In this document: positions 34,695 through 41,911 of the stretch, piece after piece
Layout: every line of letters begins with the position of its first letter
Numbering within the stretch: position 1 is the first letter of the stretch
From: Promethearchaeia archaeon
GTDB lineage: Archaea > Asgardarchaeota > Lokiarchaeia > Sigyniarchaeales > SOKP01
DNA length: 64,000 nucleotides
Direction: 5' to 3'
Assembly: GCA_029856045.1 (NCBI GenBank)
Contig: JAHQWG010000028.1
Span: 1 to 64,000, forward strand
The notes under the pieces: generated by a model
The model's database searches: none
What the model was told of the DNA's origin: nothing
The model's input: the letters and a program-made list of their open reading frames with translations, nothing else
Made by a program: the position numbers and the translations under genes

Positions 34695-35282
34695 ATGAGT
34701 GAAAATTTAAAATGTAATGTATGTGGTGGAGAAATTTCTGAAGATGATCTTGCATTATTAAAAATTCAGAAAAAAATTGAATGTAGATATTGTAAAAATC
34801 TGATAGTTTTAGATGAAAAGACCGCTAAGATTAAAGAAGATTTATGTTGTGTAATATGTGGGGGTGCTTTAGCGGTTGAAGATCTATCGGAAAAGGCTCT
34901 AGCCTGTAAGTATTGTCAAAATGATTTAGAAGAAATATCTTATAGCGAAGCTAATTATCCAGAAATTTTTAACAGATTAAAAGCCATACCCGAAGAAAAA
35001 ATTATTGAGATTTATAAGACTTTAATGAGAGAGGAGAATTTTGAACAGTTAAATAAAGATGACCAAATTAAATTAAAAAAATTTGGTGAATCTTTTATAC
35101 CAAAAATGAAAGAAATTTATAAAGCGAATAAATGGGATATGGCTACAAAAGCTATTGGATGGTTAGGTCATAGTTTGGGAACCTTATTAGGATTAACAAT
35201 ACTAGGTGGTACAATTGGAGGAGCAGTGGGAGTATTGTTATCAGTATTAGGAGTTGCATTCGTTAGAGGCAAGGCAAAATAA
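34695..35282 (+). CDS. tail-anchored double zinc-ribbon protein
   Basis: CNVC..CRYC and CVIC..CKYC; C-terminal Gly-rich hydrophobic segment GTLLGLTILGGTIGGAVGVLLSVLGVAFV followed by RGKAK. Confidence 0.75.
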   Translation: MSENLKCNVCGGEISEDDLALLKIQKKIECRYCKNLIVLDEKTAKIKEDLCCVICGGALAVEDLSEKALACKYCQNDLEEISYSEANYPEIFNRLKAIPEEKIIEIYKTLMREENFEQLNKDDQIKLKKFGESFIPKMKEIYKANKWDMATKAIGWLGHSLGTLLGLTILGGTIGGAVGVLLSVLGVAFVRGKAK

Positions 35283-35321
35283 ATTGAATAATTTGAAAAT
35301 TTAAGAATTAGATTTAAAATT

Positions 35322-36419
35322 ATGTTAGAATTTAGATTAGTTCCACAATTTCGCAATAATTGTGTGATTCAGGGTAAAAAAGAGTTAGTTAGCAGTTTTA
35401 AAGAAGGAGATACAGTATTTTTATTATCAAAAATTCCAACAAAAACATTTTCTATCTTAACAAAAGTTGAAGGGATTATAGATTCTGATGAGAATCTTAT
35501 CTACATCGATCAAAGGATACTTGGTAAATTAGCAGAAAATGATATGGTGACGATTTTAAAACATAATCCAGCCGAAGCATTAACAATATATTTAGCAATA
35601 TCGGAATCTTTTTCCAGAGTTTTCAGCGGTGATTGGACATCTTTTGCCAAAAAACCATTAGAAAATAAAGTTTTTGATTTTGGACAAGAAGTATCATTTA
35701 TAATTCCCTGGGAAGATGAACATGGAAACCAACTTCCTCCAATTGCTATTTCAGGATTTGTATATTCAACTGTTCCTACACCACCTATAAAAGTTGGATT
35801 ACAAACGAAAATATATTTGAAAAAATTTCCTGAACTACAGCTACAAAAAATAAAACAAACTGGTTTTGAAAAACAAGAAGCACGTGTAAATATATTGGAT
35901 AATGAAATCCAACAAAACATTTTGCACCTTATGCAAACGATTAAACAAAATAATTATCCAACTAAGGCAAATAAATATAAATTTAAAAATGTTAATGCAA
36001 AACAATTATTTGCCTCTATAAACGAGGTTTTTAAAGGATTTCGAGTTGTTGAAGGGCCAACTGAAAAGACATTTGATAGTGAAAATCAATCATTTTTAGG
36101 TTCCATTGTTTATCTTGCTGAAGAAACTACAGATTCTCTGGCAGTTATTGATCTTCAGGTATTAGCAAAAAATCAAAATGGAGAAGTAATACTAATGGTC
36201 ACTGCTAAAGATAATGATGTTGTTTATAATCTGTTAAATAAATATGATTTATTAATTCGCAAAATTAAAATTGGGTTAGAAGAAAAAGCAGAGCTAAAGG
36301 TTGAGATTTGTCCTAGCTGTGGGGCAGATTTACCTCTTGATGATGTGGACTCAGATGGATCTATTGAATGTTTATATTGCCACAGAACCTCAATTATTCC
36401 AAAATCATATAGATACTAG
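35322..36419 (+). CDS. stand-alone Cdc48/p97 N-domain (UFD1-like fold) protein with alpha/beta middle domain and C-terminal zinc ribbon
   Basis: IYIDQRILGKL..NDMVTI, AEALTIYLAI, KKPLENKVFDFGQEV, FVYSTVP..PIKVGLQTKIYL parallel the CDC48_N/CDC48_2 pattern; no Walker motifs; CPSC..CLYC. Confidence 0.6.
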   Translation: MLEFRLVPQFRNNCVIQGKKELVSSFKEGDTVFLLSKIPTKTFSILTKVEGIIDSDENLIYIDQRILGKLAENDMVTILKHNPAEALTIYLAISESFSRVFSGDWTSFAKKPLENKVFDFGQEVSFIIPWEDEHGNQLPPIAISGFVYSTVPTPPIKVGLQTKIYLKKFPELQLQKIKQTGFEKQEARVNILDNEIQQNILHLMQTIKQNNYPTKANKYKFKNVNAKQLFASINEVFKGFRVVEGPTEKTFDSENQSFLGSIVYLAEETTDSLAVIDLQVLAKNQNGEVILMVTAKDNDVVYNLLNKYDLLIRKIKIGLEEKAELKVEICPSCGADLPLDDVDSDGSIECLYCHRTSIIPKSYRY

Positions 36420-36450
36420 ATTTTATTCTTATTAAAATTGAGGATATTGA

Positions 36451-39401: not shown

Positions 39402-39572
39402 TTACATATAAAATTTTTTAATTTTTTCAATTTATAAAGTTATTTTTTAAATAACAAATGAAGGCGAAATATTATTAAAAGTAAGGTAAAAAAACCTGAA
39501 GAATTAAAAGCATTTACTTACGGAATAAAAAATAGAATATTATCAAATATTAAAAGCATTGAAGCAAAATTA

Positions 39573-40625
39573 ATGAAAATTATTCAATATTATATAAAAT
39601 TGGATAATATGGAGATTAATAATGAATTAGAAAAACTTAGAAGGAATCTATTGAAGTTAAAAGATACTTTAAACGCATATAGAATCCCTCCATCATTAAC
39701 AAAGATTGATAAAATAAAGAAGAACGTTATTAATAAAATAAAAATGGTAATTTTCTATTTAGAATTGATACTGATTGAAACGGAAAAAACTATTTATGAT
39801 TTTGAAGAAAGTACCCTTGATTTCAAGGATAATGATAATATTGAAGAGGTTCTCAATATTTTCTCAGAATGTGATAAAAAGATAAATAATTTATTATTAC
39901 AATTGGATAATTTTGGAGATCTAACTCAATTTAAAAATATTTTCGATTTGATTGAACCTGAAATTGAAAAACTATATCCTAAATCTAAAGATATCGAGAA
40001 AATTTTGAAGCTAAGTAAAAAAGCCAATTTATTAAAAATCGAGAGAGAGAAATTACCAACAATTCTGAAAATTGAAAGGGAAGAAAAGAAAGAAGTAAAA
40101 GAAAAAAAAATTATTCAACCTTTAGAAACTGCAGAAGAAAATAATGAAGTTCTACGTAATATTTTCGAAAGATTCTCCTTAAAGGTTCCAAATAAGAGTC
40201 AATTAATTGATAGTATCGTATCGATTGGGGATTCTAAAATAACAAACGAATTAGGGGGAGTCGTAAAAATAACAGCATTATATAACTTTATAAAAGATGA
40301 GAATAAGGATTTAGATTTTACATTAGACGATTTAAACAAAGTTTTAAAATATATGAGAAAGAAAGGATATATTTCAGATATTGAAGAGATTGAAAATCTA
40401 AAGTTAGTAAAATTTATTCCACTTGAACTATCATCAGATCCAAAATTATTATTAGAATCCGTAGGATTCGAAGGCGTGGAGACTAAAGAAAATTTAATGA
40501 AAAAACTTAATTGGCCAGAATCAAGAGTGGATGAGGTTTTAAGGTTTTTAATTGACAAGGGAATATGCAAATCAGAAAATAATTCTTTAATAAGTGAAAG
40601 ATTTTACTTTCCAGGATTAGTATAG
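39573..40625 (+). CDS. second ESCRT-II Vps22/36-like (EAP30) protein with long helical N-terminal domain
   Basis: C-terminal ELGGVVKITALY, LDDLNKVLKYM, FIPLELSSDP, LNWPESRVDEVLRFLIDKG, FYFPGL parallel 3065..3781; frame is open upstream to about 39462, so the true start may be earlier. Confidence 0.8.
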   Translation: MKIIQYYIKLDNMEINNELEKLRRNLLKLKDTLNAYRIPPSLTKIDKIKKNVINKIKMVIFYLELILIETEKTIYDFEESTLDFKDNDNIEEVLNIFSECDKKINNLLLQLDNFGDLTQFKNIFDLIEPEIEKLYPKSKDIEKILKLSKKANLLKIEREKLPTILKIEREEKKEVKEKKIIQPLETAEENNEVLRNIFERFSLKVPNKSQLIDSIVSIGDSKITNELGGVVKITALYNFIKDENKDLDFTLDDLNKVLKYMRKKGYISDIEEIENLKLVKFIPLELSSDPKLLLESVGFEGVETKENLMKKLNWPESRVDEVLRFLIDKGICKSENNSLISERFYFPGLV

Positions 40626-40705
40626 AAATTATTTAAAAACATTAATATAGAATAAAGTTTAACAAATAAATTAAAAATAAAATATTTAATAAACGGGTGT
40701 AAAGA

Positions 40706-41911
40706 ATGGTAGGAGAGATTCCTAGAGGAATTAGTCGAAGTTTAAAAGATAAAGTCTTAGGTAAGAAGTTAAAAATTGTAGAGATGATGCATGAGACTTC
40801 AGCAGATCTAAGTGAAAAAAGAGTGGTTTATCGTTTAGCTCTAACTGGAAAAAAAGAGGCAGGAAAAAGGGAAGAAAAGGTTTCTGCTTTTATAGTTAAA
40901 GCATATGAAAGTGCGATTTTGCTTCAATTAGGAAAGTTTATTGGAATTATTCCAGAAGGCGTTTGGGAAATTGAAAAAGAATTTCAATACACAGGGACTG
41001 AAATTATCTGGGTTGATAAAACAGAGTTTAAAACTAGATGGGGTTTAGCAGATATTTACTTAAATGATAATATTAAAGTAGGGGCTCATGGTTCACTTGT
41101 AGTAAAAATTTCAGAACCGAAAAATTTTGTGTTAAATGTTGTCTCAAATAAGCAGATTGTTGACAGAGGACAAGTCGATAAATTCATTTTTGAGCACGTA
41201 GGTCAAAGTTATAAAGATATACTTGGTGGTTTTTCGATCAATGATGTTATTAGAAGTCGAGATATGATTAAACAAAAAGTAAATGCAAAATTATATGATC
41301 TTCTAACTCATTGGGGTATTGAATTAATAAATATGGAAATAGAAGGCTTCAAGCTTCCTGAAGAATTTGAGGAAATTGGTCAAGTATCCATGGAAACCTC
41401 ACTTGAAAAACAGAAAGCAATCTCAGATAGGGAACGCATAAAAGAGGAAATTGAAACTGTAAAGATACAATCAGAATTAGAAGCCCAAAAAAGAGAAATA
41501 GAGGCAAATAGAAAAGGTTTTGAACGTGAACAAGCCGTTATAGACTCTCAAATTGGTTATGAAAAAGCTAAATATGATGCTAAAGCAAAAGAAATTGAAG
41601 GAACTGTGAGTGTTGAATTACTGGAAAAACAGCAAAAAGCTAAAGCAGCAGGAGATGTAGCAAAAATTGAAGTTACTGGTGATAAAATGGCCAAAATTGT
41701 TGAAGCTCAAGCCGGAGTAGATAAGAGTCAAGAGGACTTAAAACGAGAACGACAACAAAAGATTAAGCAAGAAATTTCCGAATTAAAAGAGAAATTAAAT
41801 AAATTTGATGATTTATTGGCTGAAGGAAAACTTTCTGAAGATATATATAAAGTGCGAGTTTCTCGAATTGAGAAAGAGTTGAAAGATCTTGAAACAAAAC
41901 TTCTAGATTAA
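40706..41911 (+). CDS. SPFH/band-7 (YdjI-like) protein with coiled coil and C-terminal SHOCT-like helix pair
   Basis: VKAYESAILLQLGKF, IIWVD, WG, GAHGSL.VKISEPKNF, WGIELINMEI; flotillin-like EA/AK coil; DDLLAEGKLSEDIY. Confidence 0.8.
   Translation: MVGEIPRGISRSLKDKVLGKKLKIVEMMHETSADLSEKRVVYRLALTGKKEAGKREEKVSAFIVKAYESAILLQLGKFIGIIPEGVWEIEKEFQYTGTEIIWVDKTEFKTRWGLADIYLNDNIKVGAHGSLVVKISEPKNFVLNVVSNKQIVDRGQVDKFIFEHVGQSYKDILGGFSINDVIRSRDMIKQKVNAKLYDLLTHWGIELINMEIEGFKLPEEFEEIGQVSMETSLEKQKAISDRERIKEEIETVKIQSELEAQKREIEANRKGFEREQAVIDSQIGYEKAKYDAKAKEIEGTVSVELLEKQQKAKAAGDVAKIEVTGDKMAKIVEAQAGVDKSQEDLKRERQQKIKQEISELKEKLNKFDDLLAEGKLSEDIYKVRVSRIEKELKDLETKLLD

What the first reader, a model, noticed from the sequence alone, without database searches (positions are those of the whole stretch)
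34695..41911. Candidate archaeal UFMylation system linked to membrane-remodelling genes (Zn-ribbon anchor, Cdc48-N, UBA5, JAB, UFM1-UFC1, ESCRT-II, SPFH)
Seen: seven co-oriented genes with short gaps (about 30-170 bp). They include an E1 with UBA5-specific motifs, a JAMM protease and a Ubl-E2 fusion whose halves match recalled UFM1 and UFC1 sequences. Established: UFMylation (UFM1/UBA5/UFC1/UFL1-DDRGK1/UFSP) is a eukaryotic ER- and ribosome-quality-control pathway, and Asgard genomes are known mainly for ubiquitin-ESCRT clusters. Inference: this is a self-contained UFM1-type conjugation operon acting at the membrane, and possibly the ancestor of eukaryotic UFMylation. An antiviral role, as in bacterial E1-E2-Ubl-JAB operons, is the alternative. 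I cannot verify how far this locus has already been described.
Basis: partly seen in the sequence, partly recalled or inferred. Interest (0 to 1): 0.95.

Follow-up and report, generated by a model that had tools for sequence, protein, structure and literature searches.

The report
Asgard UFM1-type protein-tagging operon
A Lokiarchaeial (Asgard) genome carries, on a 10-kb variable island, an operon for a UFM1-like protein tag fused to a UFC1-like carrier enzyme, a UBA5-like activating enzyme, a metalloprotease and a predicted tag-binding protein, so a pathway described as largely eukaryote-only can be tested in a prokaryote.

Summary
Seven co-oriented genes lie at 34695-41911 with gaps of 31-171 bp.

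- **E1:** UBA5-type (188 bits to human UBA5, 91 to MoeB). It shares the catalytic signature C-x-[AT]-SLP-x-T-M and sits in a UBA5 clade.
- **E2 half of the fusion:** UFC1-type (Pfam above cut-off; Z 16.9 against at most 9.9 for other E2s).
- **Ubl half:** has no sequence hit to UFM1. Solved Ufm1 is its best structural match (Z 10.1-12.1 against 9.9). In most related loci it is a separate ORF ending exactly in ...VG-stop.
- **Protease:** the JAMM residues are invariant.
- **365-aa gene (g2):** has a p97/Cdc48-N-like domain, co-occurs with the E2 in 32 of 36 genomes, and is predicted to bind the Ubl (0.81, controls 0.00).
- **SPFH and Vps22-like genes:** a recurrent neighbouring pair.

The cassette is accessory (36 of 400 Asgard genomes) and sits on a 10.1-kb segment missing from three congeners. 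It does not track the UFL1-like gene. A related cassette exists in a non-Asgard archaeon. Ancestry to eukaryotic UFMylation and action at the membrane therefore remain inferences.

Ufm1 homologues in Asgard archaea are published; I found no paper on the E2 or the operon. This scan has noted the same cassette before in other genomes.

The parts
31868..41957 (.). 10.1-kb variable island that carries the operon and two membrane-protein genes
   Evidence: In three congeneric genomes (G148, G145, G146) the flanks match at 90-93% nucleotide identity. Window 28000-31867 and 41958-46565 lie about 74 bp apart there, and this segment is missing (junctions read). Contigs from independent salt-marsh and marine-sediment metagenomes bridge both junctions, so it is not an assembly chimera.
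34695..35282 (+). g1: tail-anchored protein with two Zn-ribbons (195 aa)
   Evidence: CxxC at residues 7/30 and 52/71, and one hydrophobic segment at 163-192. No Pfam family. tblastn found it in only 1 of 33 related loci, so its membership of the system is weak.
35322..36419 (+). g2: p97/Cdc48-N-like domain (1-180), alpha/beta middle domain (209-323) and C-terminal Zn-ribbon (330-353); predicted Ubl-binding partner
   Evidence: AF2 model pLDDT 82.7. Foldseek top hits are p97 N-domains (E 1.6e-8). VIA gives Cdc48A-N Z 12.8, NSF-N 12.3 and UFD1 10.0; the middle domain gives Z 9.5-11 to helix-grip and appendage-platform folds. It lies directly upstream of the E1 in 23 of 33 loci. It is single-copy and present in 32 of the 36 E2-positive genomes among 400. 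Complex prediction with the Ubl: score 0.81, best control 0.00.
36451..37230 (+). g3: UBA5-type E1, adenylation domain only (259 aa); catalytic Cys190; Zn ligands C171/C174 and C243/C246
   Evidence: Human UBA5 188 bits against MoeB 91. In a library of 1.8 billion proteins, the best named hits outside the Asgard group are eukaryotic UBA5, among the top-ranked hits. UBA5 supergroup 97*, Asgard clade 97*. Signature CTASLPSTM is shared with UBA5 and absent from most MoeB-like rows.
37282..38508 (+). g4: JAMM/MPN+ metalloprotease (residues 1-125) with a C-terminal extension of about 280 aa and unknown fold
   Evidence: Prok-JAB 27.5 bits, cut-off 25. E24, H82, S83, H84, S93 and D96 are invariant in 13 homologues. 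The nearest solved sequence is Caldiarchaeum Rpn11-like, weakly (E 0.04). Present in 26 of 33 loci.
38583..38849 (+). g5a: Ufm1-like beta-grasp modifier (residues 1-89, ending ...DRNIVG)
   Evidence: AF2 pLDDT 90.8. Nine Ufm1 entries score Z 10.1-12.1 against 9.9 for the next beta-grasp. Foldseek Ufm1 TM 0.81-0.83, rmsd 1.6-1.8. In 13 of 16 split loci the separate ORF ends exactly in VG-stop. No sequence hit to UFM1.
38850..39401 (+). g5b: short linker and UFC1-like E2 (residues 98-272) fused in frame; catalytic Cys226 within the invariant I-C-H-x-H
   Evidence: Pfam UFC1 27.2 bits, cut-off 25. phmmer against PDB finds mainly UFC1, E 4e-7. VIA gives UFC1 Z 15.7-16.9 (X-ray entries) against at most 9.9 for other E2s. 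I225, C226, H227 and H229 are invariant in 25 sequences. K208 aligns with UFC1 K108.
39573..40625 (+). g6: Vps22/36 (EAP30)-like tandem winged helices (226-349) behind a helical N-terminal half of about 200 aa
   Evidence: EAP30 26.1 bits, cut-off 26.8. Human SNF8 E 3.8e-4. 21% identical to the canonical EAP30 gene of the window, E 2e-9. Atlas features point to EAP30 clusters, score 0.90. Found in 12 of 33 loci, immediately upstream of the SPFH gene in 11 of them.
40706..41911 (+). g7: SPFH/Band-7 protein with a long C-terminal coiled coil and no hydrophobic segment
   Evidence: Band_7 59.8 bits and Band_7_1 37.1 bits. No TM-like segment. An SPFH gene lies within about 10 kb of the E2 in 21 of 33 loci, including Heimdall-group loci.
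31951..33627 (-). Island passenger: SBBP beta-propeller membrane protein (558 aa)
   Evidence: SBBP 110 bits; hydrophobic segments at 4-35 and 422-455. Its last ~100 residues are nearly identical to the end of the 177-aa ORF. Whether it belongs to the tagging system is unknown.
33773..34306 (-). Island passenger: 177-aa membrane protein with the same C-terminal cytoplasmic domain
   Evidence: No Pfam family; hydrophobic segment at 18-69. A gene with this domain lies just downstream of the E2 in L012.

Best explanation
This is a UFM1-type ubiquitin-like conjugation cassette. Only the sequence and structure likenesses below are shown; every biochemical step is inferred.

1. The 272-aa precursor is cut after Gly89 by the neighbouring JAMM protease. 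This frees a Ufm1-like tag ending in Val-Gly and a UFC1-like E2. The same protease probably also removes the tag from targets.
2. The UBA5-type E1, presumably a homodimer, adenylates Gly89 with ATP and takes the tag as a thioester on Cys190.
3. The tag passes to Cys226 of the E2 and from there to lysines of targets that are still unknown.
4. The 365-aa protein g2 binds the tag in the cleft of its p97-N-like domain, as p97-N binds UBX and UBD beta-grasp domains. It acts as a reader, adaptor or E3-like specificity factor.
5. The SPFH protein, the Vps22-like winged-helix protein and, in this genome, a tail-anchored Zn-ribbon protein place the reaction or its products at membrane scaffolds.

The cassette is an accessory trait carried on a variable island, not a housekeeping pathway.
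For: - **E1:** UBA5 188 bits against MoeB 91. Eukaryotic UBA5s (Anisakis, Volvox, Galdieria and others, 177-184 bits) are the best named hits outside the Asgard group. The UBA5 supergroup is separated from MoeB-like proteins with SH-aLRT 97. The catalytic-Cys signature is shared.
- **E2:** Pfam UFC1 above its cut-off. PDB sequence hits are mainly UFC1. Z 16.9 against at most 9.9 for other E2s. I-C-H-x-H is invariant.
- **Ubl:** Ufm1 is the best structural match. Its functional end is marked by evolution: in 13 of 16 split loci the ORF stops right after VG, usually with the stop overlapping the E2 start (ATGA, GTGA or TTGA). The fused and split states switch at least 4 times on the E2 tree, so a processing protease is needed and is always nearby.
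- **JAMM:** catalytic residues invariant.
- **Synteny:** g2-E1-JAB-Ubl-E2 in Loki, Hermod, Odin, Heimdall and Sigyn genomes.
- **g2:** co-occurs with the E2 in 32 of 36 genomes, where about 3 would be expected by chance (related genomes are not independent). Complex prediction 0.81 against a best control of 0.00; this mark was reached by 58 of 80 solved complexes and 2 of 110 mismatched pairs. Runs agree in at least 88% of contacts and partner pLDDT is at least 82. The interface uses conserved P8/R11 of g2 and the conserved P23-V26 and P37/E38 of the Ubl.
- **Separate system:** a canonical UQ_con E2 with its own E1 lies on another contig, so this is a second system.
Against: - No biochemical step was tested, and no RNA data exist for the locus.
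- The Ubl has no sequence-level link to UFM1.
- The E1 lacks the C-terminal UFM1- and UFC1-binding tail of eukaryotic UBA5. How it recruits the tag and the E2 is unknown.
- The E2 has an insert of about 10 residues between the TAK-equivalent Lys and the catalytic Cys, and reads CGK where UFC1 reads TAK.
- The predicted g2-Ubl complex resembles solved p97-N/UBX complexes, so the pass may reflect that likeness.
- The membrane link is by neighbourhood only. g1 was found in 1 of 33 loci and the SPFH protein has no hydrophobic segment.
- The UFL1/DDRGK1-like protein is in 114 of 134 genomes of the family against 20 of 134 for the E2, and 12 of 36 E2-positive genomes lack it. The eukaryotic E3 logic is therefore not mirrored.
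Confidence: 0.75

Rival explanations
1. Same chemistry, different biology. The cassette is a conflict or stress system, for example antiviral tagging as in bacterial Bil and CBASS Cap2/Cap3 E1-E2-JAB operons. It is carried as a mobile accessory island rather than being a proteostasis pathway ancestral to UFMylation.
For: - Patchy distribution: 36 of 400 Asgard genomes, 9 of 90 high-quality ones, and none of the 4 other genomes of the same genus.
- A 10.1-kb presence/absence difference with sharp borders against three congeners.
- One genome holds two copies.
- A related cassette occurs in another archaeal phylum, which suggests transfer or ancient spread.
- The E1 and JAB give weak generic hits to CBASS E1-E2 and JAB models.
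Against: - The PADLOC hits are generic (at most 64 bits against 188 for UBA5). The other five proteins have no significant PADLOC hit (best E 0.0014-0.0075), and none of the six scanned against PHROGs hits.
- No integrase, repeats or known defence genes were seen at the island borders or in the flanks.
- The conserved partners (p97-N-like, SPFH, Vps22-like) are typical of membrane and proteostasis biology.
Confidence: 0.2
2. The tag feeds the Asgard ESCRT pathway as ubiquitin does. The Vps22-like protein g6 and the UFL1/DDRGK-Vps28 fusion encoded 36 kb away would read or place the tag on membrane cargo. The link to ESCRT, not to ribosomes or an ER-like function, would then be the core biology.
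For: - g6 is homologous to Vps22/SNF8 winged helices and travels with the SPFH gene next to the cassette in 11 loci.
- The genome's UFL1-like protein carries DDRGK, UFL1, PCI and VPS28 domains in one chain.
- Canonical Vps4, Vps25 and Vps22/36 genes lie in the same window.
Against: - g6 lacks the N-terminal half of EAP30 proteins and scores under the Pfam cut-off.
- It was detected in only 12 of 33 loci.
- The UFL1-Vps28 protein is common where the cassette is absent.
- No binding was tested.
Confidence: 0.12
3. The E1 and the small beta-grasp protein are a sulfur-carrier pair of the ThiS/MoaD/SAMP type for cofactor or tRNA thiolation, not a protein-tagging system.
For: - The E1 belongs to the ThiF superfamily and hits MoeB/ThiF models at 100-115 bits.
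- Archaeal SAMPs serve both roles (established knowledge).
Against: - All NCBIfam MoeB, ThiF and UbaA scores are far below their cut-offs.
- UBA5 scores twice as high as MoeB.
- A dedicated E2 with an invariant Cys and a JAMM protease are always linked.
- The tag ends in VG, not GG.
- The genome holds four other ThiF-family genes for such roles.
Confidence: 0.03

Closest known systems
Eukaryotic UFM1 cascade (UBA5 E1, UFC1 E2, UFM1; UFSP1/2 proteases; UFL1-DDRGK1-CDK5RAP3 E3)
   Same: - The E1 is about 40% identical to eukaryotic UBA5s, with the same catalytic-Cys signature and Zn ligands.
- The E2 has the UFC1 fold (Z 16.9), the Lys of the TAK motif and the catalytic Cys.
- The tag has the Ufm1 fold and a single C-terminal Gly preceded by Val, made as a precursor.
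   Different: - The genes form one operon.
- The tag is fused to, or translationally coupled with, its E2.
- The protease is a JAMM metalloenzyme, not a papain-like UFSP. A search for Peptidase_C78 found nothing, but the control did not ring.
- The E1 lacks the C-terminal UFM1/UFC1-binding tail.
- The E2 has a beta-hairpin insert before the Cys.
- A p97-N-like protein is the constant partner, not UFL1/DDRGK1.
- Distribution is patchy and island-borne.
Published Asgard Ufm1 homologues (Koestlbacher et al., PMC12962969; preprint 10.1101/2024.07.03.601958) and Asgard UFL1/DDRGK1-like proteins (PMC10183829; 10.1101/2020.10.19.343400)
   Same: The Ubl here is of the kind that paper reports from nine Asgard clades, found by structure rather than sequence. 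The 788-aa DDRGK-UFL1-PCI-VPS28 protein of this genome matches the published fusion architecture.
   Different: Those papers do not mention an E2, an E1, a protease or gene neighbourhoods (no occurrence of UFC1 or UBA5 in the main texts). PMC10183829 states that UFM1, UFC1 and UFSP2 were seen only in eukaryotes.
Archaeal ubiquitin operon of Caldiarchaeum subterraneum (Ub, E1, E2, RING E3, Rpn11; PMC6043591)
   Same: An operon with a Ubl precursor, E1, E2 and a JAMM (Rpn11-like) protease that processes the precursor. CsRpn11 is the nearest solved sequence to g4.
   Different: That system is ubiquitin-type: di-Gly tag, UQ_con E2 and a RING E3. Here the E1, E2 and tag are UFM1-type and there is no RING protein.
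Bacterial Bil and type II CBASS Cap2/Cap3 E1-E2-JAB defence operons
   Same: E1, E2, Ubl and JAB genes in one accessory operon with patchy distribution.
   Different: Only generic ThiF and JAB similarity. E1 and E2 are not fused to each other. There is no cyclase or effector. The partners are p97-N-like, SPFH and Vps22-like proteins.
p97/Cdc48 N-domain with UBX/UBD cofactors, and UFD1
   Same: g2 residues 1-176 have the double-psi barrel plus beta-barrel N-domain fold. The predicted Ubl contact uses both subdomains, as UBX domains do on p97-N.
   Different: g2 has no AAA ATPase domains. It has an extra alpha/beta domain and a Zn-ribbon. The binding is predicted only.

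Membership tests
UBA5 (E1 of UFM1) | ThiF-type adenylation domain that scores best with UBA5, not with MoeB, ThiF or UbaA | tested here: met
   UBA5 188 bits, MoeB 91, ThiF 64. NCBIfam MoeB, ThiF and UbaA all far under their cut-offs. Eukaryotic UBA5s are the best named hits outside the Asgard group among 1.8 billion proteins.
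UBA5 (E1 of UFM1) | Falls in the UBA5 clade of a tree with MoeB/ThiF-like outgroups | tested here: met
   Supergroup of Asgard, eukaryotic and a few other clades has SH-aLRT 97; Asgard clade 97; eukaryotic clade 98. The order among them is unresolved (quick tree, 69 rows).
UBA5 (E1 of UFM1) | Catalytic Cys inside the adenylation domain in the motif C-x-A-S-L-P-T-T-M; two CxxC Zn ligand pairs | tested here: met
   CTASLPSTM at 190, ACSAC at 170 and CSIC at 243. The motif is shared by 11 Asgard and 6 eukaryotic rows and absent from most MoeB-like rows.
UBA5 (E1 of UFM1) | C-terminal extension with a UFM1-interacting sequence and a UFC1-binding sequence | tested here: not met
   The protein ends at residue 259, 13 residues after the last Zn ligand. 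Asgard homologues are 255-300 aa, eukaryotic ones 360-420 aa.
UFC1 (E2 of UFM1) | Matches the UFC1 family model above its curated cut-off | tested here: met
   PF08694 27.2 bits, cut-off 25; 27.8 bits in the six-frame genome search. The margin is small.
UFC1 (E2 of UFM1) | UFC1 fold, distinct from canonical E2s | tested here: met
   Human and Leishmania UFC1 Z 16.9 and 16.8 (rmsd 2.3-2.7, 149-153 residues aligned). The best other E2 scores Z 9.9. The top 24 Foldseek hits are all UFC1.
UFC1 (E2 of UFM1) | Catalytic Cys equivalent to C116, and a TAK motif in place of HPN | tested here: inconclusive
   C226 is invariant. It corresponds to C116 through the non-Asgard E2 P0414, which aligns its Cys with both. 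K208 aligns with K108, but the motif reads C-G-K and a ~10-residue insert follows.
UFM1 | Matches the Ufm1 family model by sequence | tested here: not met
   No PF03671 hit for 12 Ubl domains or in the genome (best 11.8 bits, at another locus). A profile of the Ubl finds no Ufm1 chain in the PDB.
UFM1 | Beta-grasp fold closest to Ufm1 | tested here: met
   Nine Ufm1 entries score Z 10.1-12.1 (for example 5hkh_A: 12.1, rmsd 2.4, 86 aligned). The next best are TBK1 ULD 9.9 and Caldiarchaeum ubiquitin 9.7. The margin is about 1-2 Z units.
UFM1 | Mature C-terminus is a single Gly preceded by Val, exposed by processing | tested here: met
   Residues 86-89 read I-V-G after D-R-N. In 13 of 16 split loci the ORF ends ...VG-stop; three have 2-3 extra residues; the fused forms carry variable linkers. 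The cleavage itself was not tested.
JAMM/MPN+ metalloprotease | E ... H-x-H ... S-x-x-D metal-binding and catalytic motif; family model above cut-off | tested here: met
   Prok-JAB 27.5 bits, cut-off 25. E24, H82, H84, S93 and D96 are invariant in 13 sequences.
ESCRT-II Vps22/Vps36 (EAP30) | Full-length EAP30 architecture above the family cut-off, encoded with Vps25 and Vps4 | tested here: not met
   26.1 bits against a cut-off of 26.8, covering only profile positions 99-215. The N-terminal 200 residues are unrelated. The canonical EAP30 (45.8 bits), Vps25 and Vps4 genes lie at 935-3781. The C-terminal winged helices are homologous.
SPFH / Band 7 | SPFH domain above cut-off | tested here: met
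   Band_7 59.8 bits (cut-off 23.6) and Band_7_1 37.1 bits (cut-off 24).
Cdc48/p97 AAA ATPase | N-domain followed by D1 and D2 AAA domains | tested here: not met
   Only the N-domain fold is present. There is no AAA hit. g2 works like an N-domain but is not a Cdc48.
Bacterial Bil / CBASS Cap2-Cap3 defence systems | Specific match to defence-system E1-E2, JAB or Ubl models | tested here: inconclusive
   The E1 scores at most 64 bits to Cap2 models over the shared ThiF core, and the JAB 21 bits. The library dates from 2023.

The most novel reading that the evidence does not exclude
Archaea possess a complete, minimal UFM1 pathway: a Ufm1-like tag, a UBA5-like E1 and a UFC1-like E2, processed by a JAMM protease and read by a p97-N-like protein. 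This cassette, or a close relative in the Asgard lineage, would be the direct source of eukaryotic UFMylation. UFC1 would then not be a eukaryotic invention. The later UFL1/DDRGK1 E3, the UFSP proteases and the UBA5 tail would be add-ons to an older mobile module linked to membrane scaffolds.
Probability: 0.4. Interest if true: 0.9.

Novelty: new variant of a known kind. Interest (0 to 1): 0.8.

Why it matters
UFMylation is an essential pathway of animals and plants, acting in ER-ribosome quality control and linked to disease. Its origin is open. A 2023 survey found UFM1, UFC1 and UFSP2 only in eukaryotes. A 2026 paper added Ufm1 look-alikes in Asgard archaea but gave no enzymes.

This locus shows the tag together with its E1 and E2 in one operon, conserved across Asgard classes. 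That turns the origin question into bench work with five small soluble proteins. The related cassette in the cultured Lokiarchaeum ossiferum (L007) would allow target hunting in cells.

The locus also offers three new things to test:
- a JAMM protease doing the job of UFSP;
- recurrent tag-E2 fusion;
- a p97-N-like protein as a candidate reader of a UFM1-type tag.

The patchy, island-borne distribution warns against reading the cassette as a core ancestral trait without proper phylogenies.

Tried and rejected
- **Sequence link from Ubl to UFM1:** none. The Pfam Ufm1 model does not hit 12 Ubl domains or the genome, and a Ubl profile finds no Ufm1 chain in the PDB.
- **VIA search over PDB representatives:** it did not list Ufm1 among its 50 rows. 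The second look at Foldseek's matches did.
- **Word-seeded profile search with the E2 alignment:** it found only Asgard proteins and cannot reach eukaryotic UFC1. No eukaryotic UFC1 or UFM1 sequence could be fetched, so I could not build E2 or Ubl trees with eukaryotes.
- **E1 tree:** the order of the Asgard, eukaryotic and other clades is unresolved. Several unnamed metagenomic rows could not be assigned. One long-branch row (P0211) is a ubiquitin-type E1 next to a UQ_con E2.
- **Taxonomy of the non-Asgard contig L044:** no names were obtainable. I only showed that its genome draws a different phylum sample. That Pfam UFC1 search of 151 genomes found nothing and missed even the source genome, so it is uninformative.
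- **Peptidase_C78 (UFSP) in the genome:** no match, but the control rang nowhere.
- **RNA evidence:** no RNA holder is listed for the locus.
- **Island-less form:** no contig joint for it was seen in four metagenome runs.
- **Viral and defence libraries:** PHROGs gave nothing; PADLOC gave only generic hits.
- **Island borders:** read by eye, I saw no direct repeats, tRNA or integrase. I made no systematic search.
- **g1 in other loci:** found only once by tblastn. It is short and low in complexity, so this is weak evidence of absence.
- **E2 extension of P0042 against the island's 177-aa protein:** marginal similarity only (E 0.035).

Full report
**The locus.** Seven ORFs lie head to tail on the + strand between 34695 and 41911, with gaps of 39, 31, 51, 74, 171 and 80 bp. 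The genes on either side are unrelated: PHP, an ATP-grasp kinase, an SBBP propeller protein, radical SAM, URO-D. Those downstream are on the other strand. The window comes from a Lokiarchaeial (Promethearchaeia) genome. Named homologues are all Asgard, and canonical Vps4, Vps25 and Vps22/36 genes lie at 935-3781.

**E1 (36451-37230).**
- It scores 188 bits to human UBA5 over its whole length, against 91 for MoeB and 64 for ThiF.
- All NCBIfam MoeB, ThiF and UbaA models fall far below their cut-offs.
- In a search that read 1.8 billion representatives, eukaryotic UBA5s at 177-184 bits and 38-43% identity (nematode, Volvox, Galdieria, Auxenochlorella) are the best named hits outside the Asgard group and rank among the top hits. 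MoeB-like proteins score 115 bits or less.
- A quick maximum-likelihood tree separates a UBA5 supergroup from MoeB-like rows (SH-aLRT 97). Within it are an Asgard clade (97) and a eukaryotic clade (98). Their mutual order is unresolved.
- The catalytic-Cys signature C-[TVA]-[AT]-S-L-P-[ST]-T-M is shared by Asgard E1s, eukaryotic UBA5 and a small non-Asgard clade. It is absent from most MoeB-like proteins.
- The protein stops 13 residues after the last Zn ligand, so it lacks the UFM1- and UFC1-binding tail of eukaryotic UBA5.

**Ubl-E2 fusion (38583-39401).**
- The E2 half passes the Pfam UFC1 cut-off narrowly (27.2 against 25).
- By phmmer and by a 25-sequence profile, the significant PDB hits are nearly all UFC1 chains; ordinary E2s appear only at E about 0.5.
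- The AF2 model is confident (pLDDT 90.8).
- UFC1 gives Z 15.7-16.9 in the X-ray entries (rmsd 2.3-3.2, about 150 residues aligned), against at most 9.9 for any other E2.
- I225-C226-H227-x-H229 is invariant.
- C226 corresponds to UFC1 C116 through a third sequence that aligns with both.
- K208 aligns with K108 of the TAK motif, but the motif reads CGK and an insert of about 10 residues follows.
- The Ubl half has no sequence hit to UFM1. Nine solved Ufm1 entries are its best structural matches (Z 10.1-12.1), ahead of TBK1 ULD (9.9) and Caldiarchaeum ubiquitin (9.7) (Foldseek TM 0.81-0.83).

**Comparative evidence for the cleavage point.** A scan of one genome per species gave 33 loci.
- In 16 of the loci read, the Ubl is a separate ORF of about 88 aa (87-94).
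- In 13 of those it ends exactly in ...VG followed by a stop. The stop usually overlaps the E2 start codon (ATGA, GTGA or TTGA). Three carry 2-3 extra residues.
- The window and several other lineages have the two halves fused through a short variable linker.
- On an E2 tree, the fused state (judged by length) changes at least 4 times on well-supported branches and 10 times by parsimony. The window sits in an all-fused clade of seven.
- Gly89 is therefore the functional end, and a processing protease is required.
- The JAMM gene lies next to the cassette in 26 of 33 loci, and its E24, H82, H84, S93 and D96 are invariant.

**The constant partner g2 (35322-36419).**
- It has no Pfam family.
- Its model (pLDDT 82.7) has a p97/Cdc48/NSF/PEX1/UFD1-type N-domain at 1-176 (Foldseek E 1.6e-8; Z 12.8; UFD1 Z 10.0).
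- A middle alpha/beta domain at 209-323 resembles helix-grip and appendage-platform folds (Z 9.5-11). A Zn-ribbon follows.
- It is single-copy and lies directly upstream of the E1 in 23 loci.
- Among 400 Asgard genomes, full-length g2 is in 38 and the E2 in 36, with 32 shared. About 3 would be expected by chance, although related genomes are not independent.
- A complex prediction with the Ubl scored 0.81 against a best control of 0.00. This mark was reached by 58 of 80 solved complexes and 2 of 110 mismatched pairs. Runs agree in at least 88% of contacts and partner pLDDT is at least 82.
- The contact uses both N-subdomains and conserved residues on both sides. It resembles solved p97-N/UBX complexes, so the pass may partly reflect that likeness.

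**The membrane-related genes.**
- g7 is an SPFH protein with a coiled-coil tail and no hydrophobic segment.
- g6 has C-terminal tandem winged helices homologous to Vps22/SNF8 (E 3.8e-4) and to the window's canonical EAP30 gene (E 2e-9). Its N-terminal 200 residues are different, and it scores just under the Pfam cut-off.
- g6 and g7 travel as a pair, upstream or downstream of the core. SPFH is found in 21 of 33 loci, including Heimdall-group ones; g6 in 12.
- g1 has two Zn-ribbons and a C-terminal anchor, but was detected in only one other locus.

**Distribution.** The cassette is accessory.
- It is in 36 of 400 Asgard genomes, 9 of 90 high-quality ones and 20 of 85 genera. It is in none of the four other genomes of its own genus.
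- In three of those congeners the flanks (90-93% identical) lie about 74 bp apart. Window 31868-41957 is missing there: the operon plus an SBBP membrane protein and a 177-aa membrane protein.
- Independent metagenome contigs bridge both borders, so the arrangement is real.
- The UFL1-like gene, here a 788-aa DDRGK-UFL1-PCI-VPS28 fusion 36 kb downstream, is in 114 of 134 genomes of the family against 20 of 134 for the E2. Twelve of the 36 E2-positive genomes lack it.
- The genome also has a separate canonical UQ_con E2 with its own E1.

**Beyond Asgard.** Notes of this scan report the same cassette in at least 34 genomes, some of them Thermoplasmata.
- I confirmed one case independently. The E1 representative P0192 lies on an archaeal contig with a 66-aa ORF, a 160-aa Pfam-positive UFC1-like E2 and a 335-aa ORF.
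- Its genome draws a different phylum sample from the window's.
- Its E2 is 27% identical to the window's (E 4e-11) and hits human UFC1.
- I could not name the organism.

**Literature.**
- PMC10183829 states that UFM1, C53, UFC1 and UFSP2 were seen only in eukaryotes, that UBA5 occurs in prokaryotes, and that UFL1 and DDRGK1 come from Asgard archaea.
- PMC12962969 and its preprint report Ufm1 homologues in nine Asgard clades. They say nothing of UFC1, UBA5 or gene context.
- Other searches found no description of the operon.
- Automatic JGI annotation already labels some of these E1s 'ubiquitin-like modifier-activating enzyme 5', and some E2s carry precomputed PF08694.

**Verdict.** The core reading, a UFM1-type conjugation operon, is well supported by sequence, structure, synteny and co-occurrence. 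Action at the membrane, the roles of g1, g6 and g7, and ancestry to eukaryotic UFMylation are inferences. The island-borne, patchy distribution and the non-Asgard relatives keep a conflict or stress role and a more complex history open.

Noticed in passing
window 935-3781: Canonical Asgard ESCRT genes: Vps4 (MIT + AAA + Vps4_C, 935-2152), a Vps25-like ESCRT-II subunit (2182-3063) and a Vps22/36 EAP30 protein (3065-3781, - strand, 45.8 bits). They lie 31 kb upstream of the UFM1-type operon.
   Followed up: partly
L034:427-2793 (- strand); same contig as the window, about 36 kb beyond the operon and outside the window: A 788-aa protein combining DDRGK (37 bits), UFL1 / E3_UFM1_ligase (50 bits), PCI and a C-terminal VPS28 domain. 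This is the published Asgard fusion. It is common in the family (114 of 134 genomes) whether or not the UFM1-type cassette is present.
   Followed up: partly
window 31951-33627 (-) and 33773-34306 (-): The SBBP propeller membrane protein and the 177-aa membrane protein on the island end in a nearly identical cytoplasmic domain of about 100 aa (...YYTSIR.TEGKVDLKNILRGM...YADWEKQDKGKI). A gene with this domain lies just downstream of the E2 in L012, and one E2 (P0042) carries a faintly similar C-terminal extension.
   Followed up: partly
L025 and L033: Two contigs of a MAG labelled Patescibacteria (AMOR_Bin_1762) hold fragments of the Asgard-type E2, and L033 also holds SBBP repeats like the window's. 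These are probably Asgard contigs binned wrongly.
   Followed up: no
G241 (C49 and C77) and G152:C100:36139-36684: One Lokiarchaeial genome carries two full copies of the cassette (two E2 and two g2 matches). In another genome the E2 domain lies in an 897-aa open frame and no g2 was found.
   Followed up: no
L010:5840-7615 and L011:4373-5432, 6163-8739: In two loci, extra DNA of 1-2.5 kb separates g2, E1 and JAB, which are otherwise adjacent. This suggests insertions inside the cassette.
   Followed up: no
L046:4479-5861: A metagenomic contig with a canonical UQ_con E2 directly upstream of a ThiF-type E1, next to genes with beta-adaptin appendage and RabGAP-TBC domains. It looks like an Asgard ubiquitin-type locus; its E1 is a long branch in my tree.
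   Followed up: no
window 30642-31529: A 295-aa protein matching the ATP-grasp domain of inositol 1,3,4-trisphosphate 5/6-kinase (60.5 bits), a family better known from eukaryotes.
   Followed up: no
G307, G308, G312 and others: The middle domain plus Zn-ribbon of g2 (profile positions 196-358) recurs at the ends of larger proteins (444-1110 aa) in other Asgard families that lack the cassette.
   Followed up: no
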